A DNA stretch of 64,000 nt from Ancylonema sp. Its lineage: Eukaryota. Location of the stretch: positions 1-64,000 of the forward strand of contig JBFLGF010000077.1 of NCBI GenBank assembly GCA_050230475.1, read 5' to 3'. The notes beneath the pieces were generated by a model. It did not search any database. It was not told where the DNA came from and saw nothing but the letters and a program-made list of their open reading frames with translations. Made by a program: the position numbers and the translations under genes. Shown here piece by piece: positions 1,726-39,900 of this stretch; position 1 is the stretch's first letter, and each line of letters opens with the position of its first letter.

Positions 1726-1755
1726 AAACTATGGCGTGCCTTTATGGACGGTGTG

Positions 1756-8355: not shown

Positions 8356-8978
8356 CGCTTCTGACAGATTGCTACCCACCCCGATTCCCCTTTCAGCTGT
8401 CGGGTTCGCAACTACGTAATTCAAGACGATTTCTGGTGCCGAGGAATTCTGTTCGCTCTATCCTCGCGCTGTAGAACTTCAAAGCTTCAGTAGTACGCGA
8501 TGTCTCCCTCTTTGGTCAAGTCAAACGACCGGAGAAGATTCTCGTCGATCCGGGTATTGTTTTGGATTACGCCACATTTGCGCCGAACTTGCGTCACCTG
8601 CGGACATTTTTCAGTGCGCGCCAGAAAAAATGCATCGGAGATTCGGAGGCGGTCCGCTAAAAAGTAAAGCCACGTGGGCTTCTGTGGTTGTCCAACCGAC
8701 AGAGACACATGGCATTCTTGCTACACGTGGCAAAGCATCGCACCTAGCATCGCACCAAAAACCTTCTGAACTGGACTACCACCATCCAGGGAAGACATGG
8801 CTGGCTTCTTCGTATCAAAAAACACAAGTCTCCGATAAGCTACATTAGACGTTGCTCTCACGCCATTCACTCTGCGTATTCGCGTCAGAAAGACAAAGAG
8901 CTGTGCGGGAGCAAGTTTTCGAAAGGAAACCTGCTGCCATTTTCCCGAAAAAAAACTTTGTCGTTTTCTACCCGGTAA
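8356..8978. promoter_or_regulatory. Putative bidirectional promoter between GGT and TauE genes
   Basis: Divergent ATGs 623 bp apart. G-box cores CACGTG in GCCACGTGG (~8668) and ACACGTGGC (~8723). Confidence 0.45.
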
Positions 8979-16346: not shown

Positions 16347-16813
16347 TGTTAGGATCCTCGCTACAGTCACTAGGGCTCCCTAGCGAGGTCCCCGAACTTA
16401 GTGCTAGAGCGCTACTAGCCCAGATTTCCCGATACCAAGTTCTCCCCCTTTATAGTGAGATTTGGGTCCCTAGCGGCCGCCTGGCCCCTAGGTAGTAGTT
16501 TGTTGTGTCCCTAGCTCAAGTAGTTGTGCCTTTAGCCAAATTATGTTGCGTCAGTAGCATACTTTGAGTCAGTTATCCCACATTGTTCCTAGAGTCGGAT
16601 AGGGCCGACTTTCCTATATCTAGGAGATAGGAATACCTCTAGAGCATTCCTATCAACTCATGTATTTGCACCACTCTTGAGTTTACCACTATTATTCCAA
16701 ACCAAAACCATTTCTCTTCGGCTTAGGCTATGATTGCATTCCGGCCTTGCGCCACCATACCATTTGTGCATTTGCAACTTGCTTGCTAGGGACTCTTGCA
16801 TCCGCCCCTAACA
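16347..16813. mobile_element. Possible solo LTR
   Basis: Termini TGTTAGG...CCTAACA and an internal TATAAA on the minus strand. The flanking 5-mers (TACTC/CTTTG) do not match. Confidence 0.35.
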
Positions 16814-18909: not shown

Positions 18910-19452
18910 CTTTGGAAACCTCAGGACTAACATGGCCTCTCCAAAGTCTAGGATCAAGAAGGAGATCTCGGCCAATTCGGTCTCCGGGAAGCAGGGTGAT
19001 ACGTCTATAAATTCCGACTTCAAGAATGAAGTATCCTTCTTTGAGGCCGAAGTGGCTTCTCTGTAATATGATTGTTCTAACTCCGATTGTTCCAACAACT
19101 GTGTTTTTGTGGTGACAGATCAAACCCAATACATTTTGTCGCCATCACTGTGAAGATGTTACCAGGATGATAAATCGACGGCAAATTACACGACGATTTT
19201 AGTCCAACGAGGATTTTGATGTAATCCTCACAGTGATGGTGACAAATATGTTGGGTTTTACGTTATCTTAAAAACATAGACGCGGGAATAGTTAGACTAC
19301 ACAAAGGCCACCTCGACTTTGAAGGAGGATAGTTCATCTTTGAAGTCGGTATTCAGAGATGCCTCATCCTCATTGCCGGGCGCCGCATTGGCCGAGATCT
19401 CCAACTTGATCTCGGCTTTAGAGACGCCATGTCGATTTTGAGGTCTCCAAAG
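18910..19452. repeat. Long diverged inverted repeat (fold-back, ~265-bp arms, tiny loop)
   Basis: 18961-18976 GGAGATCTCGGCCAAT pairs exactly with 19387-19402. Pairing continues inward (TTTGTCGCCATCACTGTGA / TCACAGTGATGGTGACAAA) to a loop near 19180-19190. Confidence 0.8.
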
Positions 19453-20815
19453 CTACTCATAATCGTGAATGCCATATCGCCCCTTCGTCCCAAGCTGTTA
19501 TCGCTCGGAAGTTGCCCATCGAAAATAGTTTGGGGCGGAGAGGCAATATGGCATTAAATGAAACAAAAAGACACGTGACATTACGATTCTTAGCAAGGAC
19601 AGCCCCAACTTTTTTTTTTTTTTTTTTTAAAGAATTGGTTCGACGACACCCATTTATAAACAATTGGATCAAACCAATAAATCATACAAATGCCTTCTGA
19701 TTTTTTTTCGTATGAATTTTCAAATTACTTACGGTCCCTGCATTTGGGGCGCGTCGCCCTCTACCATCTTGCTATGTGCGTAACTTTGACCTGCTCTACA
19801 TACTGAAAACAAGATGTCATACGGATTCAAATAATCTATCAATATGGGCATCTAACATTATATGCATCACAACACACTGGAATTTTACGCACCAAACTCC
19901 GCACAATATTCTTAATCATATGTACATTAACTAAGAGTTATAGGGCGATTATCGCGATGTGATTCACAATCATGCGTGGAATATCTTCGATTCTACTCTG
20001 ATTATCTGATGGGATCGATTATGCGTCAGTCGCATGCCCCACCTACCATGCAAACTCACTCTACACTCGGGGATAGTACGGGAGCAGTATCCATTACATT
20101 CAAATATTTAAGGAAGCGTTTGCACAGATGCCCACATATTCGCTTTACGTGTATCCGTGTGTCTGAAAACCCGGATATAAACAGAATACCACCCAATGAC
20201 AACAAAACCTGCATACCATAAAATTTTGATTCAATGAACTAGAATAAATAAAAATGAACATTTTTTTGGTTTTTATTTAACGGTTCTTTCATACGAGTTT
20301 AAATCATTTGAGTCGATTATCTGAAATAATTTCGAGAACTTAAAACATTTTTTCTCTAAACTTGATATCATTATAAACCCACTCCAATATAGAATGACAT
20401 GACACCTCAAAAAGGGTTTCACCATGTATCCACATACCCAAGTATTAGTACAAAAAAAAAAATGGATACCATAACTATTCAACACATTAATGTGGTCAAC
20501 CATAACTCAATAATGATTTATAACAAAATGTGTCGACGAAAATTAAAAACTAATTCAGAGAAAAGTGTGACGTGCTGTTTGGAGTCGGCCGCCCGGAATG
20601 ATATTCGCAACACTTGAACTTCTCTCTTAAACTGGAGTTCTCTCTTTTGATGTCCTCACAATTATTTTTTCTCTAAATTCTGAATGTTGGTGATCTCATA
20701 TAGTCACAATCTTGTATCGATGAATGTTGGTAATATCTCATAAAGTCACAATGTGGTATTGTGATGCTTTCACTCCCCCCCCCCAGTTGCGAAATGGTAG
20801 TAAAGGAACTGGGTC

Positions 20816-20990
20816 TTAGGAGCAGCGTTCTCCCTTGTGGTCGGGGCAGAACCATGCACCTTCGAGTATTGATTTGAGCCGGGGTGTGAGACAATAGATG
20901 TGATAGCCATCATTACAGTCATCACACAATATAAGATATTTCTCATCGTTACGTGAACCGCATTGTCTGCAGAATGTGGGGTCAGAATTG
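20816..20990 (-). pseudogene. PHD finger at the C-terminus of the Gypsy integrase
   Basis: CRQC...LILCDDCNDGYHIYCLTPRL...GAWFCPDH (C4HC3 pattern with last ligand His). Directly follows the integrase C-terminal region 21015-21305 (AMRNLAIAQQRD...VYVKRQ...VQLQGKDG). Confidence 0.88.
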
Positions 20991-21418
20991 TTGAACAGAC
21001 CTGTGTCAATCTGGTCATCTTTGATGGAAAGACTGCAGGGTGAAACATTTTTCATCTGTTCCCAAGATGCGGCGTCCATCTTTGCCCTGTAACTGCACAT
21101 TTCCAGAAGGTCGGATTTGTGTAATCCGGAGGATTTGTGGATGTGTTTTGATGTCAAGTGTGCCTTTGGTTTGACGTTTAACGTAAACAGATTGATGTTT
21201 GAGGAGACGAGGGCGAGGTCGTGCCCATGCGCCTCTGTGTACACGGAAGTATTGATGTCTGTCTCGTTGTTGTGCAATGGCAAGGTTGCGCATTGCTAGA
21301 GGCATGACCTCTTCAAAAAAAAAATTGCGTTCCAGAATGAATTTTGGTAATTCTTTGAGTGCCTCAGGTAAGGGGTCATGTTCAGCTGCTTGTATATGTG
21401 CCTGAAAGATAGGATGTC

Positions 21419-21876
21419 TGTTAGAATATTTTGGATAGCCATATGTTATGCTTGCTAGTCCAGTTGTAACCGGTTACTCTAACCGGGAGCAATAGTCTAG
21501 ATGTGCCTGTATGCGGGGCCGGGCAAGTTTTGTCCCGGGCACCTGACATGTTTCCGACGCTTAGAGACGTTATTTGTTTGACGCGTCGCGATTGGTTTGT
21601 TTAGTCGTGTCAGAAATGTCCGGCATGTGCCCCGTTGACATGTAGAAGAGTTGTCAGTCAATGATAGGCCGACGGTCAATTGTGCCGACCGTCGGCACAC
21701 AACAATCTGTAAAGCGCATCGGGTATTACCATCCCCGATGCAATCACAATATTAATTCGTTCCACACACGCAACTCCTGTCTCGTTGATCATCTCAGTGA
21801 AAGAGATCCTTTTGCGTAGTTCGTTTTGTCGCCCACCTAATTATTCCGGCCAAGTCTAATCACTCAAAAGCTTATA
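21419..21876 (+). repeat. Copia 5' LTR (TG...TA)
   Basis: Direct repeat of 27543-28014. Ends ...AAAAGCTTATA. Confidence 0.93.
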
Positions 21877-21890
21877 GGTTATGGGCCCAC
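21877..21890 (+). promoter_or_regulatory. Primer-binding site GGTTATGGGCCC (half-tRNAiMet type)
   Basis: Abuts the 5' LTR and matches the internal tRNAiMet anticodon-arm PBS known from Drosophila copia/Ty5/Osser-type elements. Confidence 0.8.
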
Positions 21891-24800
21891 GTGCGGTCTA
21901 GTTCAGACGCCGTGTTGGTTAAATACTAAAGGCTCCACGCGATTTCGCTGCGGTAATCTCTGTGAACGGTATATTCTGCTGAGCGCAAATATATTCGTGG
22001 TTGTTAAGGTCTGCACGTAATTCTGTTGACATTGCGCTGCAAGCTTTCGAGCTGAGTGCTGCAGTGCAGGAATTGCACTGAGAACTCGAGCTGAGCGAGA
22101 AATTTTGTAAAATCCTAAACAATAGCTGCCACAATGACGGATAGGTCGCAAATCCCTCAGTTTACTAGAGCTGATTATACAGGATGGGCCAAGGTCAAGT
22201 ATGGGCTGGCGGACAAGAAACTGCATCGTCGTTTGGTGATGGATTGGGACAGCTTGCCGCGAAAGTGTCGCCCAGACGTTATCCTTCCATTGACACCTGA
22301 CAACGAGCTGCAATTTGCCGCCAGGGGGATCGACGTTGATGTCGAAATATTGGTCAGGGAGCAGCAGATTTCCCAGCAGCTGCTGGAGCTGGAGAAATGG
22401 GATGAAGGCAATCTGGCTGCTATGTCATACATTGTGAAGCACCTAGGTCCTTCGGAGCTGACGCACGTCACGGACTGACATAGCTGCCGGAATGTGGGAT
22501 GCCTTGAGGACATTCTACCAGGTGCAAGGTGCGATCGAGATCGCAAATACGGAAGCACTGCTGAGCGCGATCATATAGACAGAGGCGGAGGACCTCAACG
22601 TGTACGTCAAGCGTCTGCAGCAGCTGCATCAGGACATGAAGAATCTGGGGGCGCCAGTATCTCCGACGACGCAGGCGATCAACCTGCTGAACTCTTTAAA
22701 CACGCATTACAGCCCGATGGTCTCAACGCTGATGCCGTGGTCCGAGTCGTCACCACACCTCTTCACGATTCCCCACATCGTGAGTGCGCTGCTGCGCGAC
22801 GACGTGAGGAAGGAGCTGAACGAGCGTAAAAGGGGGGCGCTGCCAGGAGGTCACCAAGCGCATGGTGGACCTCGTGGGGGGGGAAATGGAGCTGGAGGTA
22901 GCGGCAGATCTGGTGGTGCACTGGAGCTGGTCGCAGAGACGCTGCAGGCGTCGAATGCTTCGGCTGCCACAAATTCGGCCACATCAGAGCGACATGCCCT
23001 TCACCAGCTCTTGGCGGAGGCCATGCCGGAGCCTGGAAATGTCACAGGTGCCACCAGGCAGGCCACCGAGCTGCTCAGTGCCCTGCGACATCCCGCCAGC
23101 AGCTGGAAATGTTGCGCACGCTACTCAGGGAAGTTCAGGGGGGAGGCAGAAGTGCAGATATTGCAACATTGTAGGGCATACGATTGAACAATGTAGAAAA
23201 AGAACATCTGACATGGCTCTAATGAATCCAGAAGCTGCTCGAAGGGCTGATGCACAAGCTAGACTTGCACGCTTTGCTGACAAACCTTTCGACGCTAATG
23301 TGGATTATTTAGCTTTCGGGTGCTTTCTCGTTCGATGTTGCTCGGGCATTCTGCTGTCTCACACAGACTCCCTGATTCTGGATTCAGGTGCTACCGACCA
23401 CATTTTCACGGAACGTGAACATTTTGTGGAGTACACACCTACCCTGAGCACGCGAAGGCCTACATCACCACTGCCGACGGCTCGTCACACAAGGTGGAGG
23501 GCACTGGTTTCGTGCACATCCGAGTGAGGACGAATGGCGACGCATTTTTTGTGCAGCCACTCAGCTCGATCCACGTCCCTACCTTTGCCTGAACCCTCGT
23601 GTCGACATCGTGCCTCGTCAGAAGAGGTGGGCTGAGCTTTCTACAGCTGCCCACGGGTCCACAATTAAAAAAGGGAAATGTGAAATGGGCTGATGTGCTG
23701 CAGCAGCCTAGTGGTCTGACACTTTGCTTGCTGCCACAGTCATGGCTGGATCTCATGATACGAGAGCAAATTTGTCCACAGGCATGGTCTGGCATCACAA
23801 ACTAGGTCACCCCAGTTCTGATGTGATGACAGATTTTGTCAGACGTGGTGACATCCCAGAGTTAAGTCAGGAAGAATTAACTGAAGTCAGGGGATGTCAG
23901 GTTTGTTGTCAGGGGAAGATGATTCAGCTCAGTCATGCTAAGGTCAGTGAGGATCTGGGGACATGCCCCAAGATGGGTCGCATTCACCTGGATCTCATTG
24001 GACCATTGTCTGTCAGTTCTGCTAACGGAGGATATACATATGCTCAGACAGGGATTGAGGTATCCACACGTCTGTCATTTGTCAGCTTGCTAAAAACAAA
24101 GGATGAAGCACTGAACCGAGCAAAAGTCACTATACAATTGCTCGAGGTCCAGTCAGGGTTGCCCCTACAGTCTATACGGACAGACAAGGGTGGGGAGTAT
24201 GTGTCTCAGGACTGGATAAACTACTGTGGGGGGAAGGGTATTGACAAGCAAACCACAGAAGCATATAGTCCTGAACAAAACGGAATCTGTGAAAGACTGA
24301 ATAGAACATTGACAGAAACGTGGCATATTAATCTGGTCAGGTCTACCGAAGTCTTATTGGGATGTGGCATTATTACATGCAAACTGGTTAAGGAACAGAA
24401 CACCCACAAAGTCGCTTTCTGTCGCTTGCTGGCAGAATCCCAATTGAAGTCTGGGAGGGAAACAACATGAAAATGAACAAAAGTCATAATTTTGGGTCCA
24501 ATACTTGAAGGTTTGGGGGGAAAAGAACAGTCAAGGGGACAAGTTTGCCCCTCGCACTTGCTTTGGGTTTCTGTTGGGGATGGCTGCGGGGAGTGCAGGC
24601 TACCAACGTCTTCGACCCCCATAGGGTGGGGTGATATCACGCATGGACGTGCGGTTCTTCGAGGAGGTGCCGGGGTACCCGAAGCTCATGGGGGGGAGAG
24701 CTCCCCAGGTTCAGGCGGCAGCAGAAAAGTACTTTTTCTACCTTTTTCCCAACCCCGAAGATGAGATGAACCAGCAGCATTCCAGCAGCAGCAGTCCACC

Positions 24801-27542
24801 CCACAGCCAGCAGCAGCAGTCCACCCCAACATGCCAGCTTCTGCAGCCGATGCCAGCAGTTCTCCAGCCAATCCCAGCACCAGCACAACCAGCAGTCCCT
24901 GAGCCAGCAGCTGCCATCGACTATCCGCACGACAACTTCCAGCCACAAGCTGCTAAGGTCCCTAACGCCACGATTGAGCTGTCCGCGACAGCCAGTCAGG
25001 GATCAACAACGCAGGAGGTGGAGATGCAGGGGAGGAGGAGGTGTGCAAGGAGGGGGTGCAAACCCAGGAGTGGGGGAGCCAGGCAGCATAGCTGATCGGG
25101 TGATGGCCAGAAGGCGAGCCAACTTTGCCGAGTATGGGGATCTCATGTGATGTGATGGGGAGGAGTTCGATGACGCACAGCTCACGCCAACTACTCAGCG
25201 ACTGGAGTGGGAGCCCAGCAGTTTCTACAGGCTTCAACGGTCCTGTGGATCCCTGGCTACCGGCAATGCGTAGCATCAAACAAGCAACCTCCTCCGAGCC
25301 ACTCACCCTCAACCATGCGGATGAGTGAGGCCAGACTGGGGGACCAGTGGGACAGGGCCATTGTGGAAGAGCCTCGCTGCCCTGGAGGACGTTCAACACC
25401 TTTGAGGGTGTGTGTACTTCCTCCAAGTAAAAAAGGTTGTGGGGTGCAGATATGTTTTTAAGGTCAAAACAACAAGGGGTTGAAAGATATAAAGTCAGAC
25501 TGGTCGCACAGGGATTCTTACAGCAAGAGGGTCTTGACTATAACGAAGTATTTGCACCAGTAATCGACAGTACATCTCTCACCCTACTCCTATCTATAGC
25601 CAACCAATCTAACTGGGAACTGGAACAGATGGACGTAATCACAGCGTTCCTGCATGGACGTCTGGAAGAAGAAGTATATATGAAAATACCACCACGTATG
25701 CATATCAAGGGGGGTGCTGAGGGAAAGGTCTTACGACTGAAGGGGGCTTTATACGGTCTATAACAGAGTAGCCACGTGTGGCAAGAGATGTTCAGAAAGT
25801 TTATGATATCTGAAGGGTTTACACAATGCGTAATGGACACATGTATATATATGAGGGGGGAAGCAGACAGTCATTCTGGGCATACATGTAGATGATCAGG
25901 TGATCACAGGTCCTAACTCAATGGTCGTCAAAACTTTTAAAGAAGATATGGGTAAAAAGTTCAAAGTCAAGGATCTGGGTCCCCTAACCCATATCCTGGG
26001 GGTGGAAGTGAAGAGGGATAGACAGAGAAGACTGCTCACACTGGGAACGACAGTCAGGTTTCTTAAGAGGGGAGTGCTTGAACGCTATGGGATGCATGAG
26101 TGTAATCCAACCAAACTCCCCCTCGCCCCTGGAACTCAATTTACACAAAATGATGAACCAACTCTTTCCCCTACCCCTGAAGAAATAACAGACTTTCGAG
26201 GGAAAGTGGGATCTCTCATATATGCCATGAAACAAACCAGACTGGACATCGGGTATGCACTTGGGGTACTGGCTAAACACATGGGAAATCCTGGGGTCGC
26301 ACACATAAGGGCGTTACATCAACTATTCAGATATCTTACAGGGACGTGAACCACGGACTGACGTTTGTGGGTAAAGACAGCTTTGAAGTAAAGGGTTACT
26401 GCGATGCATCATGGAACAGTTGCAGCATGACAGGCAAGTCAGTCACAGGATGGGTAACCACGGTTGGGGGGACAGCACTGAGTTGGAAGTCGCAGAAGCA
26501 GTCCATTGTTGCACAGAGCACTGCTGAGAGCACTGCTGAGGCTGACTGTAGTGTATCTAAAGATGCTGTTATGTCTCTCTTGAAAGAACTCGAGTTTCCA
26601 AACCAAATCACAATCCACACTGACTCCACCTCAGCGCTCTCCATGATCCAGAATCCTGTGCAAAGACAGAAAGCAAAACATTTTAATGTGGTATATCACT
26701 GGGTACGGGAATGCCATAGCACGGGGAGACTAATATATGTGTATCTTGCAGGCGCAAATCAACCAGCAGATATGCTAACTAAAGCTTTACCCCAAGTTTT
26801 ACTGGACAGACACATCAAAAGTCTAGGTTTTGGACGGTTATACTGAACTGGGGGTGTCAGTAGTTTTCTTTTATTTTTATGATCGAAGGTTTCGAATGCC
26901 ATGCATGTTGGCAGGGGGTGTGTTGTTATGTTTCTTTTCAGGCAAAGTAATGGGGAGGGTACATCAACTTCAGCTCATCCAGCTAAGTCACATCTTACCT
27001 TAATACCTTGAAAAGACACTTGAAAACGCTTAGGACACTTTAAAATCAGAAAGTGATCTGCTCAACTTTAAACTTGTCAGTTTAATGTTTTGAATTTTCG
27101 AATGTATGTCTTAATCATTGTTGCAAAACTTGTTTCAAAAGTTGGTGCTGATAAGACTGGTAATTTTGAAGTTATGCTGTTTTGAGATTTTTCTGACTGG
27201 AAAGTGGAAGTAAAGTAATCGTGAAGTTGAAAAAAATAAAAAATCAAACATATTTTCATAAGTTTTTTTGTTTTTCGCCTAACTTGTGGTATTTGTTTGT
27301 ATGTTCAGGGACTAAGGATCTGGAGCGATCGACTTCTGGAGTTCCGATCGGCTTCCGATCGTCTTCCGATCGTCTACGGCTGCATTTGTCGGATAGAATC
27401 CCCTAGCTAGCACGCTTGTATGCTAGGGAAGACCAAAACTGTTATATGTTATGCAATGGTTCTGCCATGATTTGGCAATGACTTGGGTACTTCTTTTGAT
27501 GTCTGCATCTATGCCAACTTTAGCATGGCATCCGAGGGGGTG

Positions 27543-28014
27543 TGTTAGACTCTATTGGATAGCCAGATGTTATGCTTGCTAGTCCAGTTGTAACCGGTTA
27601 CTCTAACCGCGAGCAATATTCTAGATGTGCCTGTATGCGGGGCCGGGCAAGTTTGTGCCCGGGCACCTGACATGTTTCCGACGCTTAGAGAAGAGACGAG
27701 ACGTTATTTGTTTTGTTTGACGCGTCGCGATTGGTTTGTTTAGTCGTGTCAGAAATGTCCGGCATGTCCGTTGACATGTAGAAGAGCTGTCAGTCAATGA
27801 TAGGCCGACGGTCAATTGTGCCGAGACCCGTCGGCACACAACAATCTGTAAAGCGCATCGGGTATTACCATCCCCGATGCAATCACAATATTAATTCGTT
27901 CCACACACGCAACTCCTGTCTCGTTGATCATCAGTGAAAGAGATCCTTTTGCGTACGGTTCGTTTTGTCGCCTACCTAATTATTCCGGCACGTCTAATCA
28001 CTCAAAAGCTTATA
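27543..28014 (+). repeat. Copia 3' LTR (TG...TA)
   Basis: Preceded by PPT GAGGGGG(TG) and homologous to 21419-21876 with several small indels. Confidence 0.93.
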
Positions 28015-30534
28015 ATGTCTTCCATACAGAAAATAGTATGGTGAATACCCGGTAGAGGCCTGTTTTGTCATGCGGTACCCCATGGCGACATAAGGTAGGT
28101 AAATGTCCCAATCCGTGCGATGTTCTTTTAGTAGGATTTTCCTTAATGATAGTTTCATCGTTTGAACCATGCGTTCTGCTAATCCATCAGATTGTGGGTG
28201 TTCTCGGGCTGCAGTACGATGTGTAACTCGATGTCCGACAAGTAAGTCGGTGAATGCCCCTTCAAATTTCGCGCCTTGGTCGGTGATGATTTCACCAGGG
28301 GCCCCAAAACGAGAAAGGACATGAGTGAGTAAAGCATGTACTGCTGATTTTGAAGATTTGTAAGGTAGGGCGATAAGTTCAACCGGTGAAATGTTCAATG
28401 CAGATCATAACGTATTGGTTTTTACGTGTACTTTCTGGCATAGGTCCAGCGGTGCGAAGTCAACTCCCCAACGGTAGAAGAGTCCCCGAATTGGTAATGG
28501 TTGTAGTTGGGTACGGCCATCAGCAAAGTTTGTTTTTGCTCGAGAATATGCTGGACATTCTTTAATGACCTTAATGACATGATTCCCCAGTCCATGCCAC
28601 CAGTAATCTTGTTGTAAAGCGTGGAGCACGCGTTTGACCCCAAAATGACCCAATCGTGTGTGCATGGTATTGATGTGAGGAGTTCGTTCTCGTGGTGGTG
28701 GAACAATTTTCATGTGTCCAGAGGTAGGGATTTTGTAAAAATATATCCCCATCCATCTGTATTTGAGAGCCCCTCGGTATGTACGGTCTCTTTGTTGTGG
28801 TGTCAAGTAAGGTAGGTATGCATGAGTTTTGAGAAGTGTCATTGTGGCATTATTATCCCAAATGTCCACTTTGACATCTTCTCGTGATGGTGTACCTTGG
28901 TAAAAACTCAGAAAGTATGATGGTGGATTTTGACCCGTGGATGAAGTTTGCATGTAGTAGCAAGGTGTTTTCTCCCCTAATGTTTCAATCTCATGGTTGT
29001 CAGTGGTTTTCTGTGGTAGTGGACAACGAGTGCACCCGTCGGCATTGGAGTTCGCAACACCGGGGCGATGAATCACTTCAAATTCATACTCGTGGAGTAG
29101 GAGTGCCCAACGCGCAAGTTTGCCGATGAGTTTGGTTGTAGTCATGATCCATTTGAGGGGTGCATGATAGGTAATGAGGGTAAATGGTTTACCAAACAGG
29201 AATTGACGAAAATGTTGCACCGCCTAAATTACAACAAGACACTCCCCGTGGAAGCTGCTGTAGTTCCGTTCCGCATTGTTACAGCTGCGACTAGCAAATG
29301 CGACTGCGTATTCGGTACCATCGTCATCTGTCTGACTCAAAACGGCACCTAAATCATGTGCACTCCAGTCGGTTGCTAATAAGTATGGTTTAGTAGTATT
29401 TGGTCTTCGGAGCACAGGCTCGGAACATAGTGCCTGCTTAAGTGCAATAAAGGTTGTTTCTTGCGTCTCGTCCCAATGCCATTTGACATCCCCTTTTTAA
29501 AGTCCGTTGAGTCGGGAAGCAATCGTGGAGAAATTTGGAACGAACTTGCGGTAATAGGAAAACAACCCTAGAGCAACACGAAGTTGATGAATATCCTGTG
29601 GTGTCGGCATATCCTTAATAGCTCTGGTTTTCTCATCTTGTGGTGCAATACTTTTCCCAGAGTTCTTATGGCATAAAAAATCCATTTCATCTGCAAAGAA
29701 AAAACACTTACTTGGATGACACTTCAATTTGAACTGCCGAAGGCGATGAAAGACTTGTCGAAGGTTTTGGAGGTGGTCCTCGAAATTATTGCTCCAGTTG
29801 CTGATGTCATCAATGTAGCATCGTGAGTTGCGGAGTCTTGCCAAAATTCGGTCCATGGTACGTTGGAAGAATGGTGGTGCATTCTTGAGTCCATATGGTA
29901 CGACATTCCATTCATAAAGTTGACGGTCAGCTCCCATAAACGCAGTTTTGCATTTGTCCGTTTCAGAGATATGGATCTGGTGGTATCCTTGTCGTAAATC
30001 CAATTTCGTAAAAAAAATCGCTTCTTTCATGTCTTGAAATATGTCCTCAATTCTTGGAAGATGATACTTGTCTTGTTGGGTGTGGTTGTTGATAGGTCGA
30101 TAATCACCACACCGGCGAAAGTCCGTTGGTTGTCCGTTCTCGTCCTTCTTTCGTACCACGACGGTTGCCGATGCGTAATTATTACTGTCACTTTTTCGAA
30201 TCATGCCTAGTTCTAGAAGTTTTTTACAGTTTTCTCGAACAAAACTCCGTTTGGTGTCAGAAAGACGATGGGAGTTTTGAAAAATTGGTTGAGCTGTTTG
30301 CGCCGGAATTTCCATAGGAGTATTGTTTGATGGGAGTAACTCTTACAGAGAAAATGCAAAGACAACGCGGTTTTCCTCCAGAAGGTCAATAACTTGGAGT
30401 TTTTGCTCCTCCGTAAGATTGTTGCCAATTTTCCATGTAATGGGTTTCACCTCAGTTTCTGGTGGTGGATCTGGGTTGGATGGACTCATGTTGTCATCGG
30501 TGACAGTTGTTGATTGATAATCGGTTTCACTCAA
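28015..30534 (-). pseudogene. Gypsy RT, RNase H and integrase of the DNMT-carrying element
   Basis: DYRPIN, KLDLRQGYHQI, YGLKNAP, CYIDD (RT); LATDWS, ASRSCNNAERNYSS, LARWALLL (RNase H); GHFG, WGVDF, ITDQG, HPQSDGLAERMVQ (INT). The reading frame resumes (LYGRH-PIFQ) at 21413 once the Copia and one TSD copy are removed. Confidence 0.93.
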
Positions 30535-30720
30535 TAGTGCTTGAGTGATCGGAATTGCATCCCGAGCAAGTTGTCGTTGCGCAGTTGAAGTGTGATGCTG
30601 GTGATTCCTATTGTTGTAAAATTCATTGGTCGTAGAATCGTAATGAAGTGTGTGGTATAATGGAGCAATAGAGTAGTTGCCTCCCCCCCTTTCCTTGGTT
30701 GGCCAGGTGGGGTGTGTACC

Positions 30721-31815
30721 CTATGCAAGGGTGTAAGATGGGAGTGCATGTATAGCCATGAGAATGCCTCCGAACCATTTAGCCATGTTGTGATCCATTG
30801 TGCGTCCCGACATTGCTTTCCGAGTATTCTCCGAAAAGCTTGGTGCACATGTATCTCCATTGTCAAAACCCATGAGTCGCTCACGTTCCCAGACATTTGC
30901 TTCCTCCCAGTCATGCTTTTTTGTGTTGTAAAGCATTCCAGGGCCTAGTTGATTGTACCCTTGCAACTTAAATTGGTAATTGCCTGGGTACGAGACAAGT
31001 GTCGGTAGTGCACGACGTAGTTCGCCAGTTTTGTTAACCGGAGTGAATGGTGGTTCATCATCTTTGAGTACCTTGTTAGGTCGATGATGTGGTTCAAGAA
31101 TGGTTGACAAAGGTGGTAATTCCGGGATGTCACGAATGGCCAGTTCCAATACATCTGGTGATATCCAGTTTGTCCATATGCATCGAACACGGTGGGCTGT
31201 ACTACCGAAACTGCATGCGTCGGCAACTGCTGGAAAGCCTAAAAAAGACTTGATGAGGGTATTTGTATTTCGAATTTCCTTCACCAGATCTCCAAATGGA
31301 TATGTGTTTTCCAAAATAAGTACTGGTGGGTATTTTTGAACTCTAATGAGATGGTTGATGGCTCGAATGAGGTCGAAGAAGTATGGAAATCGTCGATCAC
31401 AGTAGCCTTTGCCTTGTCCGGCTTTGCTGACCATTTGACATTCCCATCCAGCGAAGATGAAGTCAATAGGTCCTCGTTGTAAGATCAGTTCATCCAGATC
31501 GTTGTTTGATATTTTGGAAATATCATGAGAAAGTCGAGTGTCGAAACCTTTAATTGCACTGGTTGGCAATCGTCCTGGGTATCGAACTTGAAGTTTGGGT
31601 AATGTTGCACGAGTGATGTCGCGTGCGTCTTGGTCAATGTCACTGTGGGTATATGTACCAATGTTGTTTCCAGCTTCAAGGTGCATGATAGCGCCACTGC
31701 AACTCATGCCACCAAAAGGCTCCCAAATGTGTAAACCATATTGCAGCGCCTTAGGTTGTAACCGTGCTGTATAAGATGGGTCAATTGGTACAGCATCGCG
31801 AATCGGTATATACTT
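30721..31815 (-). CDS. Retrotransposon-encoded C5 cytosine DNA methyltransferase domain
   Basis: Motif I LHIWEPFGGMSC (just upstream of the listed ATG, same frame), motif IV IDFIFAGWECQ, motif VI LILENT, motif VIII DACSFGSTAHRVRCIWTN, motifs IX/X ERERLMGF...GDT and RKAMSGRTMD. No internal stop over ~364 codons. Confidence 0.85.
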   Translation of the reverse strand, partial: KYIPIRDAVPIDPSYTARLQPKALQYGLHIWEPFGGMSCSGAIMHLEAGNNIGTYTHSDIDQDARDITRATLPKLQVRYPGRLPTSAIKGFDTRLSHDISKISNNDLDELILQRGPIDFIFAGWECQMVSKAGQGKGYCDRRFPYFFDLIRAINHLIRVQKYPPVLILENTYPFGDLVKEIRNTNTLIKSFLGFPAVADACSFGSTAHRVRCIWTNWISPDVLELAIRDIPELPPLSTILEPHHRPNKVLKDDEPPFTPVNKTGELRRALPTLVSYPGNYQFKLQGYNQLGPGMLYNTKKHDWEEANVWERERLMGFDNGDTCAPSFSENTRKAMSGRTMDHNMAKWFGGILMAIHALPSYTLA

Positions 31816-32225
31816 CTATGCGTTCCATTGTGGTAATGGCTGGTTTTGTAGTTTGTCGATTGCCTTGCGCAAATACTGTGCGCTGTTGATACGCAAGGTT
31901 GTAAGTTTGTTGAGTGCATGGTGCTCATTTACTTGTGCCATTGTTCTGGCTGCCGCATTAAGTTGTGGTCGATGCGCTTGACGAATGTCTGTATGTTTGG
32001 TTGTAGCAAGGTAAACCATGGTATTGGTTTCCCATTCTTGCATCTGAGGTTGGTACTCATTGTCGATGGGTCCATCTGGAAAATGTTGTGGTTCGTGGTA
32101 TAATACACCTTCCATGATACGAAACTCAAATTCTGTCAAAAAGTCGGCTTCTTCTGTTGAATGTAACAAATCCTCGTTCGGAATTTGCATGAATGTGTCA
32201 GCAGAAGTGTACGTAACGCCTTCAT

Positions 32226-33527
32226 TCATGTATTGACAATGCACCGAATGCCGCGTGTGGCAAGGTAGATTTGACTTGAATTGAGGCACGGTGTGTACCT
32301 TGTTTCTGCCAGTCGACGCGACGAATGATGACTCCATGGATCTGTAATACCTCCTATTGGTCCCAGGAAAGTACTGCCCAACAAAACATCGTATTTGTCG
32401 GAAGGTGTCAAATGAAGTTTGGCGTTACCGAAGTTTGGTTTTTACCATGTCCACTGGTGATGGTATATGCTCTCTTGGTGGTCCCCAAAGATTGTTGATA
32501 TTTGCCATCTGAAGTTACGTATTCTTCTCCAGGATCAAGGTCTTGTGGTGTAGAGCTTGAGTTGTTTGGCAAATTTGATACCGATGGTAACATTCTCCGC
32601 ACCTGAATCAAATATTGGTAGTGAAGGTGTTTCTCCACCAATAGTGCGTATGGATTGACTAATGTCAGAGGTTGGTATATGCCAGTTGGTTGTCAATCTG
32701 GCGTTGCAAGGAATCACCGGCGGTTTGGTGTTTTTTGGTCCCATTATAGAGAGTGCCATTGGTGGTTGTGGCATCTCTACTTATCGAGGGTAATCATGTG
32801 GTGGTGGTATGTCTCCTTGAGGTGAGTCAAGTAACAAATTCCGTCGCCGTGGACAGTTGGTCATTGTATGTTCTGTTTATCCACAAAAATAACACCGTAA
32901 TTATTTTTCAATGACATCGTATGGTTCCTCAAATTCAGGTATGGTTGGTGCCTGATGTGGTGCAGACTCGAGTGGTGTCGAGGTACATGGAGGTGAAAAG
33001 TCTGGGTAGTTATCGATGGAATACCCCAGGTTATGTTCAATCTTCGTGACTGTTGTAGTCGTTCGAAGCTTTGTCATGAGTTTTTCTAGCACCCGTTCAA
33101 GTTGTTCATCAAAGATGTGAACAGATCCTATAGAAATGTCCGACTGAGGTGCCATAACCGTGTAAGCTGGTGGATCAACTTCTTTAGTCTTAGGCTGCGC
33201 GTATCGTGTGAAAGCCAATGTAGCTTTCCATACCTCCTTTGCTTGAAGCAACTGAATGGTGAGATGGCGAGGGATGTGCTCCTGCTGCCACTCCTGCTTC
33301 CTGTATGTTTGTATCATCTGGACGTGCGCCAATGTTTGTTCTCGCATATGAGGTGGCAATAGGTGTACCATTTGGTTTTGTTCCTCAATCTGACTCTGAA
33401 TGAGTCCCAGTTTGTAAAATCGAAAATCTTGTCCCAGATCTGTTGTTATGGAAAACATAGATTTCTCTGATGTTAATTTGTTCAACATGTATTCAATTTT
33501 TTGATGCTCTTTCGACCCAATGTCCAT
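32226..33527 (-). pseudogene. Gag (with CCHC knuckle) and aspartic protease of the DNMT-Gypsy element
   Basis: Gag-like ORF 32901-33527 continues past a stop into RCYFCG*TEHTMTNCP. Protease motif IFDSGAENVTIG (~32590-32620) and YDVLLGSTFL. Confidence 0.75.
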
Positions 33528-33919
33528 GATTGTAAACGTCTATCATTGAATTGTATGAGAAGTGTATATCGTCAATAAAGTAGTGGTCAGGAAAGACAAA
33601 TGATGTACAAGAAAAAAATTCTGGTCACAATGTTTGTTCCAAACTTTTAGTTATCGAAATCAACGTCTTCCACGGTCGGATTGAAGTAGTATTGCCGATT
33701 GAGTCTCTGCATAGATATCAATATTATATATATCACACGTCTGAGCGGTCTGCTGAAATTCACTACTTAACGCTGAGGGCAAGCTAACATATGGTTTACA
33801 GTTCAGAAGTCTGTGAAAATATTGTAAAGCAAACAATATAGTCTGGTGCAGACTATCGAGGTTAACAGCCGTAAGAGTTACTTTCGGTGCGAAAGCAAAG
33901 TATCGACGGCGCGTCGATA

Positions 33920-34155
33920 AAAGATGCTGGCTCAGAAAGAGCGTCAGCAGACAGGTGTAAACACGTGCTGGCTCGGAGCGAGCGGCAGCAAACACACACA
34001 CACAAATGAAATTTCCGTTTCGGAGCGAACGCGGGCAAATCGACAGATTCTTTACACACACACGCACGCTTGCTGGCTCAGAGAGAGCGTCAGCGAATCG
34101 ATGTAAGAAATTACAGTCGATCTCACGGCTGGCTCAGAAAGAGCGTCAGCAACAG
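33920..34155. repeat. Repeated GCTGGCTCAGAAAGAGCGTCAGC motif (4 copies) in the putative 5' leader of the DNMT-Gypsy
   Basis: Copies at ~33926, 33967, 34072, 34128. Confidence 0.7.
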
Positions 34156-36462
34156 ATTCAGATGAATCAGATTACACACACACAAATTGCAAAGAATGAT
34201 TTGCGAACTTACTGTCTGGCTGACGGATGTCAGGGTGAGATGAAAGACGAGCACATTGCGAAGTCGCGTAAGCGAAAGGATGCAATATTCACATAAGTGC
34301 AAGGATTCAAATAACACAGAAGATTGTTGGAAGAGATTTCTCAACAGCGCAATCTGACAACGGAAGCTGGCAGATCTGAAAGTACAAATTGTCTTTTATC
34401 AAAAAGTTGTTGCGCGGTGCCAACTGGCAGAGTTAACTAGAGTTAAACTGTCGAAGATAACGACAGGCTGGCTTCTAGAACATTACAAGTAATCTCGGCG
34501 CTACGATGAAACGGCGCGAGATATTACTCTAGTTCTACGGCTGGATTTAATCGCCGGAATGATCGACAAGTCGAAAGAGACTTGTGATTTTAACAAAATC
34601 GACACGCAACTATTTGTTGAAGACTGCTGGATTCTAGACTTCGGAAAATACGCCACGCGTTATTTTCGAGTCGTACAATTTTCGTATTTCACTATTTTTC
34701 TCGTAAAGTACTAATTCTAGGAGATCGTTATATCGAATACTCTCGTTATAGCACAATATTAATCTAGAGGGGTTTATGAACAATCTAGAGGGGTTTCGCC
34801 TTAGCGATCTCTAGCGTCATGACAAGTGTGTCGAGTTATTTAAATTTGGATCATCTTTCTTGTGGCTTCTGAGGGTAATTTTATATTCACCGAATTGAAA
34901 CTACAAATATTTGAGATCTCTCGTATTCAGGGTCATCCGTAAGTTACTTGAGTTTTCCCAAACCCGGGTCCTAATGTGTGTACCGTACTTTATCCGCTTA
35001 TCGTTTCTCCCAAGTCTGTTTCCAAAACCATGTGGATATTTCGATGGAGAAATCCGACCTGTGTCTCCTTGGGATTATGATTGAAATCATAAAAAAATAA
35101 CGACAAACATGTTGTAATAGTAAGGATTATCAATTGACAACTAGAATACAACCACTCCTCATGTTCCATTGTCAACCACGATGTTATACTACTAATCATG
35201 ATGTTGTACAACCATTGATGAAGTTATATTGCCGGCCATGTATGCAAAAGCATAATGGACGAGTAACTCAATGAGATGGCACCACAGTTGATGAGAAAAA
35301 GAACCTCGGGATTATCATATTTCTCCTATATCGAGGGTTCAGTGCTCCGGTACACCCGGAATTGAATTAAAACTTCGTCATTCGTTGTTGAGGCACTACT
35401 CTTCATAGCAAGGGGCCATCGCACACACGAACAACATAGAAATAATGGAATTCGTGTTGAAATTTTGTTACGGATTCATGTGGTAAAGTTTAGCTCAAGC
35501 ACAACTGAATTCCGAAACGATACGACTTATGACCAATCTCTTAGGCACCCCTCCCGGGAGATTTAGTATCCGAAAGGTGAATACAAAATAAAATACCGTC
35601 CACCTACACGTTACACATGACAACAATAAACAGTGAAGGCATGACTCATGTCAATGTGTCAGATTAGGGTACCGCTGGCGTGTCTCGAACTTCAGCAGGA
35701 TTTAGAGGATAGATTGAGCGAATGCCATGGTCGCAATTGTACAAACATCGAACTAACAAACGTAAAACCTACATAAATTTTCGCCACACACGACTCGGGA
35801 TGCATTTGAAATGTTTGGAAGACTTGATGAACCGAGAGGTTTTCATGAAGATGTGGTGGTTGATGAAGTGCGTGGGAAATTCCGAGTTCTTTCTTTAGGC
35901 AACAAAAACAAAATCGCGTTTCCGCGCGTTAATGACTCTTAGCGTTGACCTTCACACAGAGTGGTGTACGGTTTTGTACGAGAATCGTCTTGTACGGTAT
36001 TTATGACCTCGGAAACTGTACGGTCCCCACAAAAAGAAGGTTGCCCATAGGGAGGGTGGACCGTAGTCAACTTTGACCGGGACTGGTGTCCAAAGTTCCT
36101 CCACATCACTTAACTGACTCGATTGGCGGACGGTCGTAAATACAAAGAATTGAATCAATTATTTCTCACCACGTGGCTACTAACGTCGCTGCCAGTTGTG
36201 AAATCAGATACGCTACCATTCAGCGTCCAGAAAATTCAGGAAGGCCATGAATCAATCGTGGGAGACATGCCAAGAAATACTGCCAAGAGCGGGTACCGAC
36301 TCAGAGCTATTTCTTCCGTTATTGTGTTGTACCTTTTCCAGCTCGGGCTCTCTGTGCCACCTTGTTTTCCATCAGCACGTCCCGCTGCCTGTCATCTATC
36401 GGACACGGAACTTGACCCTGCTGGAGTGATATACAATTTTCCACCTTACCAGATCAACAATA

Positions 36463-36948: not shown

Positions 36949-39900
36949 GGCATCTCCTCTGCGTCATCACTAGATCATATATGATACTGCAGTTCTTGTG
37001 CTGAGTCTTCATCGTCGCCGATATGAGTGCAGACCCTCGGAGTGTCTCGCGACGCCAGCGATAGAGACATCAAGAAATCCTTTCACAAGTTGTCGTTAAA
37101 ATATCATCCTGATAAGAATCCATCTAAAAGCGCACAGGCTAAGTTTCAAGAAATATCCGCAGCGTATGATATTCTGTCTGACGGAGAGAAGAGAAAGAAG
37201 TATGACCTGTATGGCGCGGACGTCCCAGTGGCGCCTCCTGGTGGGGGGCCAGCTGGCAGCAGCTGGACGGGTTTCCCAGGTGGTGCAGCTGGGGGCCCTG
37301 GGGGAGGGAATTACAGACAAACATTTCAGTTTCAATCCGGTGGCATGCCATCTGGCGGGAACTTATTCGGTGACCTATTCGGTGGCATGGGGGGCTCACC
37401 GGGTGGGAAAAAGTTTGAATTCAACATGGGGGACATGGGGAGTATGTTCAGTGGGTTCGGTGGAGACGGTGGAATGGGTTCAGGGTTTGGCGGGCAACGT
37501 ACTAGCGATAGCACGGTATGGAAGGCGCTAAAGGGGGTCAAAAAATTAGGAACGAAGGACTTCACATCGAAGGTGGCGGATTCGGAGCAGCTGTGGCTGG
37601 TGGTGTTCTCGTCCTTGACAGGTTCGGAGCTACAGAATGCTAAGCCGATGTTGGAGGACGTGGCCAAGGACTTGTCGGGCATGATCATGGTAAATAACGG
37701 CGCACTGTGACGAAGTTCGATCGTTACATAGTTTGGTCGAAGTGCATGTTGGTACATGGTGGTGTGTTTTTGTGATGATGAGTTCAGAAACATACAGAAA
37801 CTGGTTTGCAGAGTGAAGCCTGTGGCTAACACACAAAGGGGAGAGGATGTATCTGTGACCAAAACCAGAAACAGAACGAGAGTTACTGCTGATGTTTCAA
37901 AACATATTACAAGCCTCCCTGTATTGCACCTTCTCTCTTCTTGGCCAATGAGAATGCAAACACTTTTTGAATCATCACAGTCCTCCACCTTATGGGCTCC
38001 GCTTGATCTTTATCTATTAGGGCAGTAGAGGCAACTGCGAAAAACCTCAGACATAGCACAGTACGTATTAGTATAAGTATAAGCATATTTCTAAACATAC
38101 CCATTTTTCAGCCGTAAGAATTTCATTTCTTTCCATTTTTCCATTTGTTCATTTCATTTTTCAGTAGTAATCGCTGCAGAGAGTTGTACATTCCACAGCT
38201 CGTCCCCCTTGCAGTTTGCAGTGTGAGCTGTGCAAATCGTCCCTCACCTCTGTATATCTGTCCCTGTATTCTCTTTCTATTCCAGGTTGGAGCAGTGAAC
38301 TGATTGGAGGAGAAGAAGCTCTGTGCAAAGTATAATGCACGAGGCCAAGCTGCAGCCCTTCTCTTTCCGTATGGAGTGAAGGAAAAGACGAAACCAGTTC
38401 CATACAGCGGTTCATTATCAAAGGGTTCTGTGGTGAAATGGGCCAAAGAGCACATCCCAGATCATTCCATACAACTCGATCCAAGCAAGTTCGAGGCACA
38501 ACTTGCTTCTTCCCCTCACTTGTCTCGAGCGATTCTTTTCACAGACAAGGAGAAGACTGGTGCGCTCTGGAAATCGCTGTTGCTGTCCCTCCAGGATCGC
38601 GTTGTGCTTTACAATGTAAGCATTCTGCACATGATGCTCTCTGTCAACACTGGCAGGGTTCGGCAGGGCAGGCAGGGTGGGTCACTGAACAAGTGGACTT
38701 ATTGAAGTACAAAGATTGGACAAATTTCAACTTGTAGTCGCAATCTTCCGCTCAGACACCACTTTCTTTGTTTGAGAGTCATTTATGAACATATGTTTGA
38801 CTCAAGCACTATGGCAACTCCTATTCGATATAATGTCCATCTGCATTGGTACACAGCAGGAGCACTGGCAGGGTCGGTCATATACATCTCTCAGCATATT
38901 AGTGCTACGTGCTACTGTACTCCAGGCTAATACTTTCACATTCATATAAAATCAGTACTCGTGTTCCCATTCTCTTCTTCTGTTACAGACTGACTTGTTT
39001 TCCTTTCTCAATTACACCTCTCTATTCCCGTTTGCTCAGAGCTGCAGCAGGCAACAGGAGCCTATTCTACGGAAGTTCAAGGTTACTTCTTTCCCAACCA
39101 TTATTGGAGTCGACGGCAGTGGGAAGGAGGAGACGTACACAGGAGAAAGCAAGCTAGAGCCCCTTACAGCCTGGTTACAAAAACTGGAGAAGAAGTCCAA
39201 GGGTGCGACTAGGAATTGGGGCTGGGGTTCGAACTCGGAGACAAAATCCGAGGTTGCATTGGAGAAGAATGGTATCGGTTTCCTGACGAAAGCCAATGAA
39301 GGACGGCTTTGTGGGCCCAATAGCGCTCTGTGCATCATTGCTCTAGCGTCAACTCCAGCTCAAAGTGAACAAGCAAGCAGTATTCTGCACGCGGTAAGCG
39401 TACCACCCGCTTTGTGTTTGTGTTTTATAAGGGAGCTGAAATATCACTGTAAAGCTTTATGCCGTGCTCATTTTGTTTATCTGTATGGGGGCACTGGTTG
39501 GGACTCGGGGAGAAGGACAGGGAGGTCGCTGGTATTTCACATATTCATTCAATACTAGCTCTTATACTTCACTTCTCTTCTGAAGCAGCACCTTCACTTC
39601 CTGCATGCTCGTCTAGACAGAAGGGGTGAGTTATAGCGTCATCTTACGGGAAAATGTAGTAATCAATTCGTATGTTCCATCCATGAGTGTAGGTGTCGCA
39701 AAAGACTTTGTTACTCTCACGGAGCCAAACATCTTCGGCTGGAGGAATATCTTACAGCTTACTGGACTTATCGACTCAGAAGGAGGCTCTAAAAACTTTT
39801 TCGGCACTTTCAACCCCTGGTAAAGGGCAATTAAGCATACTTGCATATAAACCAAAGAGGCAGAGTTACAAAGCCATGGTGGGGCATGTGGGGCTGGAGG

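What the first reader, a model, noticed from the sequence alone, without database searches (positions are those of the whole stretch)
29497..32337. Gypsy retrotransposon with a cytosine DNA methyltransferase embedded in Pol between protease and RT
Seen: ORFs 31816-32337, 30721-31707, 30343-30534 and 29497-30315 are all in one minus-strand frame, separated only by single stop codons (TAG, TAG, TAA). The C5-MTase (motifs I, IV, VI, VIII, IX, X in canonical order) was therefore part of the Pol polyprotein, not a neighbouring host gene. The MTase segment is uninterrupted for ~364 codons. Known: DNMT-carrying retrotransposons have been reported in dinoflagellates and charophyte algae (de Mendoza et al. 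2018), so the class is not unprecedented, but it is rare and this family may be undescribed. Inference: the enzyme could be packaged in the particle and methylate the cDNA (self-silencing or camouflage) or the integration site.
Basis: partly seen in the sequence, partly recalled or inferred. Interest (0 to 1): 0.9.

Follow-up and report, generated by a model that had tools for sequence, protein, structure and literature searches.

The report
Algal retrotransposon carrying a DNA methyltransferase
This is a broken copy of a repeated jumping gene, likely from a green alga, that carries its own DNMT3-type DNA methyltransferase gene, a kind of element already described; the twist is a stop codon, shared by most related copies, between the methyltransferase and the copying enzymes, which is likely read through, so the enzyme would be made in excess and would likely mark the element's own new DNA copies.

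Summary
A decayed Ty3/Gypsy element (minus strand, 34824-20568, 4-bp target duplication, Copia insertion in integrase) carries a DNMT3-type cytosine methyltransferase between protease and RT (profile E 7e-22 and fold Z 27.5 to DNMT3A), plus a PHD finger after integrase. The kind is known (KnitGypsy-Dnmt3, de Mendoza 2018), and this scan noted it before in moss-like DNA.

Two of the three stops are lesions of this copy. The TAG ending the methyltransferase has no alternative at 25% or more of family depth in run X1, and 7 of 7 closest relatives end there. The 77-codon linker behind it shows synonymous bias (10 of 20 alleles, 4.7 expected). Best reading: Gag-protease-methyltransferase, then RT-RNaseH-integrase-PHD by UAG readthrough (inferred).

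Relatives have split repeats (A-coding-B-A-B) with a palindromic CAGCTG junction; this copy is a reduced A-coding-B form. The family is broad: 853 clusters, Closterium, Mesostigma, Scenedesmus and a land plant, with two domain orders. No activity or expression is shown. Verdict: new variant of a known kind.

The parts
20568..34824 (-). Whole Ty3/Gypsy element, TGTCATG...CACGTCA, reduced A-coding-B form, interrupted by a Copia element
   Evidence: Depth step at both ends and joints; termini and target duplication
34825..34828 (-). 4-bp target-site duplication CACT, 5' copy
20564..20567 (-). 4-bp target-site duplication CACT, 3' copy
33682..34824 (-). Terminal unit A (inner boundary approximate); about 10 times deeper than the coding region in the runs
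   Evidence: tables 2 and 5
32901..33539 (-). Gag-position ORF; assigned by position only, no Pfam hit and no hit to relatives
32325..32657 (-). Aspartic protease (DSG), in pieces in the gag frame, broken by stops
   Evidence: profile of relatives, E 2.4e-7 and 1.1e-4
31816..32232 (-). Spacer of unknown function, in frame with the methyltransferase; the TAG at 31816-18 is a lesion of this copy
   Evidence: P0002, P0003 and P0007 span it in one ORF, P0052 spans the stop position
30724..31815 (-). DNMT3-type C5 cytosine methyltransferase, uninterrupted; C126, E169, R209 and R211 kept; motif IV GWEC
30721..30723 (-). Conserved TAG that ends the methyltransferase frame (likely readthrough site)
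   Evidence: no difference at 25% or more in X1; relatives end here
30490..30720 (-). 77-codon in-frame linker with no AUG, under apparent coding constraint; first in-frame ATG at 30489-30487
29497..30489 (-). Reverse transcriptase; the TAA at 30343-45 is a lesion of this copy
   Evidence: RVT_1 E 2e-28; 99.7% of depth differs at 30345
29086..29496 (-). RNase H, split by a frame change and a stop
28020..28700 (-). Integrase zinc finger and core, up to the Copia insertion
21419..28014 (+). Later Ty1/Copia insertion, LTRs 92% alike, 5-bp duplication ATGTC
   Evidence: (joint 21414 to 28016 in 4 of 4 runs)
21018..21413 (-). Integrase C-terminal part, continuing after the Copia element
20843..20971 (-). 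PHD finger at the end of pol (frame-shifted in this copy)
   Evidence: Pfam PHD E 2.6e-11; best solved matches ATXR5 PHD and KDM5B PHD
20773..20784 (-). Polypurine tract (G run) directly before unit B
   Evidence: sequence
20568..20772 (-). Terminal unit B (TG...CA)

Best explanation
This is a dead copy of a repeated Ty3/Gypsy retrotransposon, likely of a zygnematophyte alga, that encodes a DNMT3-type cytosine methyltransferase after its protease, with a family-wide UAG behind it that is likely read through to make RT-RNaseH-integrase-PHD, so the enzyme would be made at Gag-like levels, would be packaged, and would likely methylate the element's own cDNA before the PHD-bearing integrase inserts it. 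Shown: domain content and order, DNMT3 kinship, kept catalytic residues, the shared stop, the 4-bp duplication, and purifying selection on the domain in relatives. Inferred: Gag-protease-methyltransferase as one product in intact copies, readthrough, packaging, the substrate (CG by analogy with SymbioDIRS-Dnmt3), and reading of unmethylated H3K4 by the PHD.
For: DNMT3 type: the family profile hits DNMT3A at E 6.7e-22, DRM-type enzymes at 3e-14 and HhaI at 1e-9. The model has pLDDT 92 and matches DNMT3A/B at Z 27.5, rmsd 2.7, against HhaI Z 23. Catalytic Cys is kept in 155 of 156 homologous domains, motif VI Glu in 155 and R209 in 156. dN/dS of the domain in relatives is 0.07-0.44 in the 8 of 13 pairs where dS was not saturated. 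Shared stop: all 29 places that differ at 25% or more in X1 over 30310-30790 are listed, and none is at 30721-23 (bin depth 93,700), while the TAA at 30343-45 differs in 99.7% of depth. 7 of 7 closest relatives that cover motif X end within 20 residues of it, against 7 of 118 others. Linker: 10 of 20 polymorphic alleles are synonymous (4.7 expected, P=0.008); the two other frames give 3 and 2; no indel reaches 25%. The linker is about as long as in a fused relative, L093. UAG followed by G resembles type III readthrough contexts (PMC2754532, passage).
Against: No RNA, protein or activity data. The hairpin 8 nt behind the UAG folds no better than shuffles (z -0.8 to -1.7). The TAG also sits in a pyrimidine-rich YAG|G context that could be a splice acceptor. 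The linker test rests on the alleles in the 40 of 60 rows shown, on contig depth, and treats neighbouring changes as independent. Ends of short metagenome proteins could be contig ends, which I could not check. In this copy the protease and methyltransferase are in different frames, so their fusion rests on relatives. The usual PC is EC here and in 90 of 156 homologues, with unknown effect. KnitGypsy-Dnmt3 gave no methylation in yeast (PMC5890265, called inconclusive there). There is no clear CpG footprint: o/e is 0.81 in this element, 0.60 in the Copia and 1.05-1.08 in two other Gypsies.
Confidence: 0.55

Rival explanations
1. Same element and same shared stop, but pol is made from a spliced RNA (the AG of the TAG as 3' splice site, removing the methyltransferase) or from an internal promoter or re-initiation at the ATG at 30489.
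For: The TAG ends a pyrimidine-rich run and is followed by G. The in-frame ATG just before the RT homology shows no listed variant. Tca2 has a junction promoter, and its flanks alone do not direct readthrough (PMC2194720, abstract). Splicing would also explain the coding constraint on the linker.
Against: Re-initiation at 30489 does not explain the synonymous bias upstream of that ATG. Position 30731, inside the pyrimidine run, is a purine on the coding strand in all X1 depth listed there. No donor site was identified.
Confidence: 0.22
2. The methyltransferase does not mark the cDNA but acts on the insertion site or host chromatin, guided by the PHD finger, or is kept mainly as a DNA-binding module.
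For: A PHD follows integrase in 44 of 57 homologues that have an integrase core, and its best matches are PHDs recalled as readers of unmethylated H3K4. The PC-to-EC change is common. There is no CpG footprint.
Against: In this lineage the enzyme lies upstream of the stop and far from the PHD. All catalytic residues are kept.
Confidence: 0.13
3. One reading: one Pol polyprotein, with all three stops being decay, or a stop inherited by a non-autonomous burst that other copies complemented in trans.
For: Fused methyltransferase-RT frames exist in Closterium, in ENA proteins and in L093. A burst from one defective ancestor would share a stop and show a coding-like linker.
Against: Relatives only about 40% identical (P0004, P0006) and two more of the same clade (P0070, P0124) end at the same place. 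X1 copies down to 80% identity keep the TAG.
Confidence: 0.1

Closest known systems
KnitGypsy-Dnmt3 of Klebsormidium nitens (de Mendoza et al. 2018, PMC5890265)
   Same: Gypsy domains, a DNMT3-related methyltransferase in the coding region, DIRS-like split repeats, a streptophyte algal host, and purifying selection on the domain.
   Different: There the domain is stated to share an ORF with RT and RNase H; here a conserved TAG separates them. Domain order, PHD and motif IV of KnitGypsy were not visible to me (Fig. 4c and the main supplement are not held). No K. nitens sequence was among the 30 clusters I looked up, so direct kinship is untested.
SymbioDIRS-Dnmt3 (same paper)
   Same: DNMT3-type domain in a retroelement and A-coding-B-A-B repeats; the only ones shown there to methylate CG de novo in yeast.
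   Different: DIRS elements with a tyrosine recombinase, in dinoflagellates; this element has a DDE-type integrase and a 4-bp target duplication.
EpiLTRs (bioRxiv 10.64898/2026.05.21.726589)
   Same: LTR elements that combine a cytosine methyltransferase with a chromatin reader.
   Different: Their DNMT is sister to DNMT4 and comes with a DAM and a chromodomain; this one is DNMT3-type with a PHD, and no DAM was seen in the ORFs scanned.
Gypsy-7a_cRei of Chlamydomonas (PMC9940879)
   Same: Green-algal Gypsy with a PHD finger in Gag-Pol.
   Different: No methyltransferase is listed among its domains in the figure legend.
Readthrough retroelements (MuLV gag-pol; Tca2, PMC2194720)
   Same: An in-frame stop between upstream proteins and pol.
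   Different: There the stop follows gag; here it follows protease and methyltransferase. No convincing downstream structure was found here.

Membership tests
Ty3/Gypsy retrotransposon | Order protease, RT, RNase H, integrase | tested here: met
Ty3/Gypsy retrotransposon | TG...CA ends, target-site duplication, polypurine tract | tested here: met
   CACT at both ends; G run before unit B
Ty3/Gypsy retrotransposon | Two matching LTRs at the ends | tested here: not met
   no terminal direct repeat in this copy; relatives have split repeats instead
Ty3/Gypsy retrotransposon | Recognisable Gag and primer-binding site | tested here: inconclusive
   the ORF at 32901-33539 has no hit; no TGG after the approximate end of unit A
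DNMT3-type C5 methyltransferase | Closer to DNMT3 than to DRM, DNMT1, DNMT2 or bacterial enzymes, with unrearranged motif order | tested here: met
   profile and fold rankings; no tree with reference DNMTs was built
DNMT3-type C5 methyltransferase | Catalytic Cys, EN of motif VI, RxR of motif VIII | tested here: met
DNMT3-type C5 methyltransferase | PC dipeptide in motif IV | tested here: not met
   EC here and in 90 of 156 homologues, PC in 53
DNMT3-type C5 methyltransferase | De novo methylation activity | not testable with these tools
   needs an assay
KnitGypsy-Dnmt3 kind | Dnmt3-related domain in a Gypsy coding region | tested here: met
KnitGypsy-Dnmt3 kind | Repeats arranged A-coding-B-A-B | tested here: met
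   met at family level: full form in L093, L096, L106, L116 and L120; joints B-to-A and A-to-B in runs of this family; the window copy itself is the reduced form
KnitGypsy-Dnmt3 kind | Methyltransferase in the same ORF as RT and RNase H | tested here: not met
   same frame but behind a conserved TAG; met only if the stop is read through
KnitGypsy-Dnmt3 kind | Sequence clade shared with the K. nitens elements | not tested
   no K. nitens sequence was recovered
Programmed stop readthrough | Conserved in-frame stop with coding constraint on both sides | tested here: met
Programmed stop readthrough | Stimulatory structure behind the stop | tested here: inconclusive
   weak hairpin, z -0.8 to -1.7
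Programmed stop readthrough | Fusion product made | not testable with these tools
   needs a reporter or proteomics

The most novel reading that the evidence does not exclude
A green-lineage-wide Gypsy group that (a) puts an active DNMT3-type enzyme on the Gag side of a readthrough stop, packaging it at structural-protein levels, and (b) replicates through a DIRS-like circular intermediate that its DDE integrase opens at the palindromic CA-GC-TG end-to-start junction. Cutting after CA on both strands would leave integrable ends, so single-junction circles would give A-coding-B copies like this one.
Probability: 0.2. Interest if true: 0.85.

Novelty: new variant of a known kind. Interest (0 to 1): 0.55.

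Why it matters
Why retrotransposons keep cytosine methyltransferases has been open since 2018. In this lineage a recoding stop likely sets the ratio of methyltransferase to RT, which gives a testable handle on that question: dose, packaging and substrate. The searches also show the DNMT3-carrying Gypsy group is much wider than the papers I read describe: zygnematophytes, Mesostigma, a land plant and a chlorophyte, with the domain at two positions in pol. Its split-repeat ends with a DDE integrase lack a described mechanism in my searches, and structure-based LTR finders that require two matching LTRs would likely miss such elements.

Tried and rejected
No whole genome is held for this window, so there was no direct copy census or dN/dS for this family. 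No RNA holder was listed, which is no evidence on expression. A scan of the JGI metagenome collection with the window protein found no relative among 150 pattern matches. The IMG/VR scan gave 44 loci with weak partial matches (E 1e-8 or worse) that I did not follow. The hairpin behind the UAG is not significant. CpG depletion shows no self-methylation footprint. Host gene or secondary insertion: rejected, because depth and the order in relatives tie the domain to the element. DNMT4-like EpiLTR origin: not favoured by profile and fold ranking, but no DNMT4 chain appeared among the listed hits, so it is not excluded. Split repeats in the RT-RNaseH-methyltransferase-integrase clade could not be scored, because those contigs are collapsed or short. 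The Atlas search with P0001 gave only DNA_methylase clusters, one of them streptophyte. My notebook entry 4 overstates the land-plant family as 33 of 80 loci; the count is 22 of 80 with the methyltransferase before RT, 43 with RT or RNase H before it, 8 followed by integrase or PHD with no RT seen, and 7 with the methyltransferase alone.
Full report
Observation. The 364-codon segment 30724-31815 hits Pfam DNA_methylase (E 2.7e-7), and RT, RNase H and the integrase zinc finger follow. The protease lies upstream in pieces in the gag frame. The element is larger than reported: depth of run contigs steps up at 20568 and 34824, where the sequence reads TGTCATG...CACGTCA between two CACT copies. A Copia element (21419-28014, 5-bp duplication; joint across it in 4 of 4 runs) splits the integrase. 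Beyond it the integrase continues into a PHD finger (E 2.6e-11). The copy is dead.

Host. A neighbouring dehydroquinase domain is 63% identical to two EukProt proteins (ids SM0000..., recalled as Spirogloea) and 59-69% to Closterium. It groups with them apart from Chara and land plants (support 88; one gene, 24 references plus Chara as root). A zygnematophyte alga is likely. Run X1 matches the flanks at 2 differences in 1095 and 3 in 1202 letters, so it is the same organism and may be the source sample. Ten contigs of a glacier metagenome (X6) fit at under 95%.

The enzyme. A profile of 58 family members ranks DNMT3A first (E 6.7e-22), then DRM-type enzymes (3e-14), HhaI (1e-9) and DNMT2 (2e-4). 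The model (pLDDT 92.3) matches DNMT3A/B at Z 27.5, rmsd 2.7 over 273 residues; HhaI gives Z 23. Among 156 homologous domains (near-duplicates included) the catalytic Cys is kept in 155, the motif VI Glu in 155, R209 in 156 and R211 in 150. The Pro before the Cys is Glu in 90 and Pro in 53. In 13 pairs of related loci, dN/dS of the domain was 0.07-0.44 in 8; in the other 5 dS was saturated, with dN 0.08-0.23. Activity is not shown.

It belongs to the element. In X1, summed depth is 82,000-99,000 over the methyltransferase, 82,000-85,000 over RT and 125-188 on the flanks. This is no copy number, but it shows a repeated family carrying both. None of the 15 joints shown (of 322) skips the domain. 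The representative search found 853 clusters at E 0.001 or better. Of the best 150, 58 have RT or RNase H before the methyltransferase, 17 have it before integrase with no RT seen, 6 have it before RT, and 69 are too short to tell; 44 of 57 with an integrase core have a PHD. I looked up 30 clusters; named members were Closterium (methyltransferase before RT), Mesostigma, and Scenedesmus sp. PABB004 (between RNase H and integrase); none was Klebsormidium. Of 80 loci kept (of 277 confirmed), 22 have the window's order; several are the same locus in different assemblies. Their flanks hold a DYW-type PPR, a NAC and a MYB-CC gene, pointing to a land plant. Trees place the window's methyltransferase in its own clade (aLRT 100) and its RT outside both other groups (aLRT 88 for their union; one outgroup; 62 and 38 chosen sequences). 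The order of events is not resolved.

The stops differ. The TAG at 31816-18 is spanned by P0007 (90% identical), P0002, P0003 and P0052. The TAA at 30343-45 differs in 99.7% of X1 depth. Both are lesions. At 30721-23 nothing differs at 25% or more: the tally for X1 counts 29 such places in 30310-30790 and the shown rows account for all 29 (for X3 two places stay hidden, and 20 rows were not shown). P0001, P0004, P0006, P0021, P0070, P0074 and P0124 all end within 20 residues of motif X; they are 7 of the 14 such cases among 125 proteins that cover it. Some ends may be contig ends. Behind the stop are 77 codons without AUG. Of 20 polymorphic alleles there, 10 are synonymous (4.7 expected, P=0.008), none makes a stop (not significant alone, P=0.39), and the other frames give 3 and 2. 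In L093 methyltransferase and RT share one ORF with a linker of similar length. I infer that pol is made through this stop, most likely by readthrough. Against this: the downstream hairpin is not significant, and the TAG could be a splice acceptor.

The ends. This copy has no terminal direct repeat, but runs join B to A (19 contigs in X1, mostly GC between) and A to B (2 contigs). L093, L096, L106, L116 and L120 show A1-coding-B1-A2-B2; L092, L104 and L123 end after a single B, like the window. Of 6 loci with both ends, 4 have an exact 4-bp duplication, 1 has one mismatch and 1 was not scored. All begin TGTCATG, as the window does. Ten internal junctions carry GC (4), GT (4) or AC (2) between the end of B and the start of A, duplicates included, i.e. 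a CAGCTG palindrome and its single transitions. The reduced form could arise by B-by-B recombination. More boldly, it could arise from a circle opened by integrase at the palindrome, as reported for foamy virus (PMC1180852, abstract only); this is speculation.

How it likely works. Shown: anatomy, DNMT3 kinship, kept catalytic residues, the shared stop, selection in relatives. Inferred: an upstream Gag-protease-methyltransferase product in excess, a rarer readthrough product with RT-RNaseH-integrase-PHD, packaging of the enzyme and methylation of the new cDNA. The PHD's best solved matches are ATXR5, KDM5B, DPF2 and KMT2C fingers, with BAZ2 and UHRF1 lower. Several of these I recall as readers of unmethylated H3K4, the mark also read by the DNMT3 ADD domain (recalled). 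CpG o/e gives no support for self-methylation.

Comparison with print. PMC5890265 (read parts 1-4 of 7, plus passages of the peer-review file; Fig. 4c and the main supplement not seen, and they may show the domain order, PHD or motif IV) describes KnitGypsy-Dnmt3 with DIRS-like repeats and the domain in the Pol ORF; the tested copy was inactive in yeast. bioRxiv 10.64898/2026.05.21.726589 (abstract and Results parts 1-2 of 3) names streptophyte Gypsy-DNMT3 and the separate EpiLTRs. I read passages of PMC12344493, PMC9940879, PMC13519894, PMC2754532 and PMC6317226, and the abstracts of PMC2194720 and PMC1180852. Nine searches, judged from listings and these readings, showed no report of a stop between methyltransferase and RT, of the EC motif, or of a chlorophyte Gypsy-DNMT3; the library lacks most subscription papers. 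This scan noted the same kind in two moss-like genomes.

Verdict. A real feature and a known kind, with a new variant in expression strategy and a wider family than the papers read describe. Interest 0.55.

Noticed in passing
proteins P0147, P0287, P0289, P0291: Retroelement polyproteins with (OTU)-RT-PHD-PCIF1_WW domain (recalled as adenine-methyltransferase-like)-DNMT3-type domain-RNase H and no integrase hit. They look like DIRS-type elements with two methyltransferases and a PHD instead of the chromodomain of EpiLTRs.
   Followed up: partly
P0043 and P0297 (Scenedesmus sp. PABB004); loci L045-L091: The commonest form puts the same methyltransferase between RNase H and integrase in long open frames, including in a chlorophyte; I did not find this in the papers read.
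   Followed up: partly
L092-L124 (22 loci with the methyltransferase before RT): A land-plant family with the window's domain order, split repeats and 4-bp duplications; methyltransferase and RT are fused in L093; strong CpG and CHG depletion.
   Followed up: yes
window 33682-34824 and 20568-20601: Unit A and, by estimate from bin means, the last 34 or so bases of B are about ten times deeper than the coding region, while most of B is about twice as deep. A more abundant non-autonomous partner sharing the termini is possible; unexplained.
   Followed up: no
window 21419-28014: Decayed Ty1/Copia element, roughly 20 times deeper in the runs than the Gypsy coding region.
   Followed up: partly
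window 8832-10271 and 52596-54039: Two inverted copies (93%) of a 1.4-kb repeat with a 12-bp tandem array; not identified.
   Followed up: no
window 1453-4528 (-) and 58471-62354 (+): Two further decayed Gypsy elements that share a 650-bp terminal-like repeat at 80%; no methyltransferase-sized ORF lies between protease and RT in the second.
   Followed up: partly
window 16571-20100: Nested imperfect inverted repeats (16571-16676/17995-18100, 18311-18777/19636-20100, 18952-19077/19286-19411), likely old DNA transposons.
   Followed up: no
window 5248-8457 (-), 37027-39555 (+), 41279-42886 (-): Host genes: gamma-glutamyltranspeptidase, a DnaJ protein and dehydroquinase/shikimate dehydrogenase.
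   Followed up: partly
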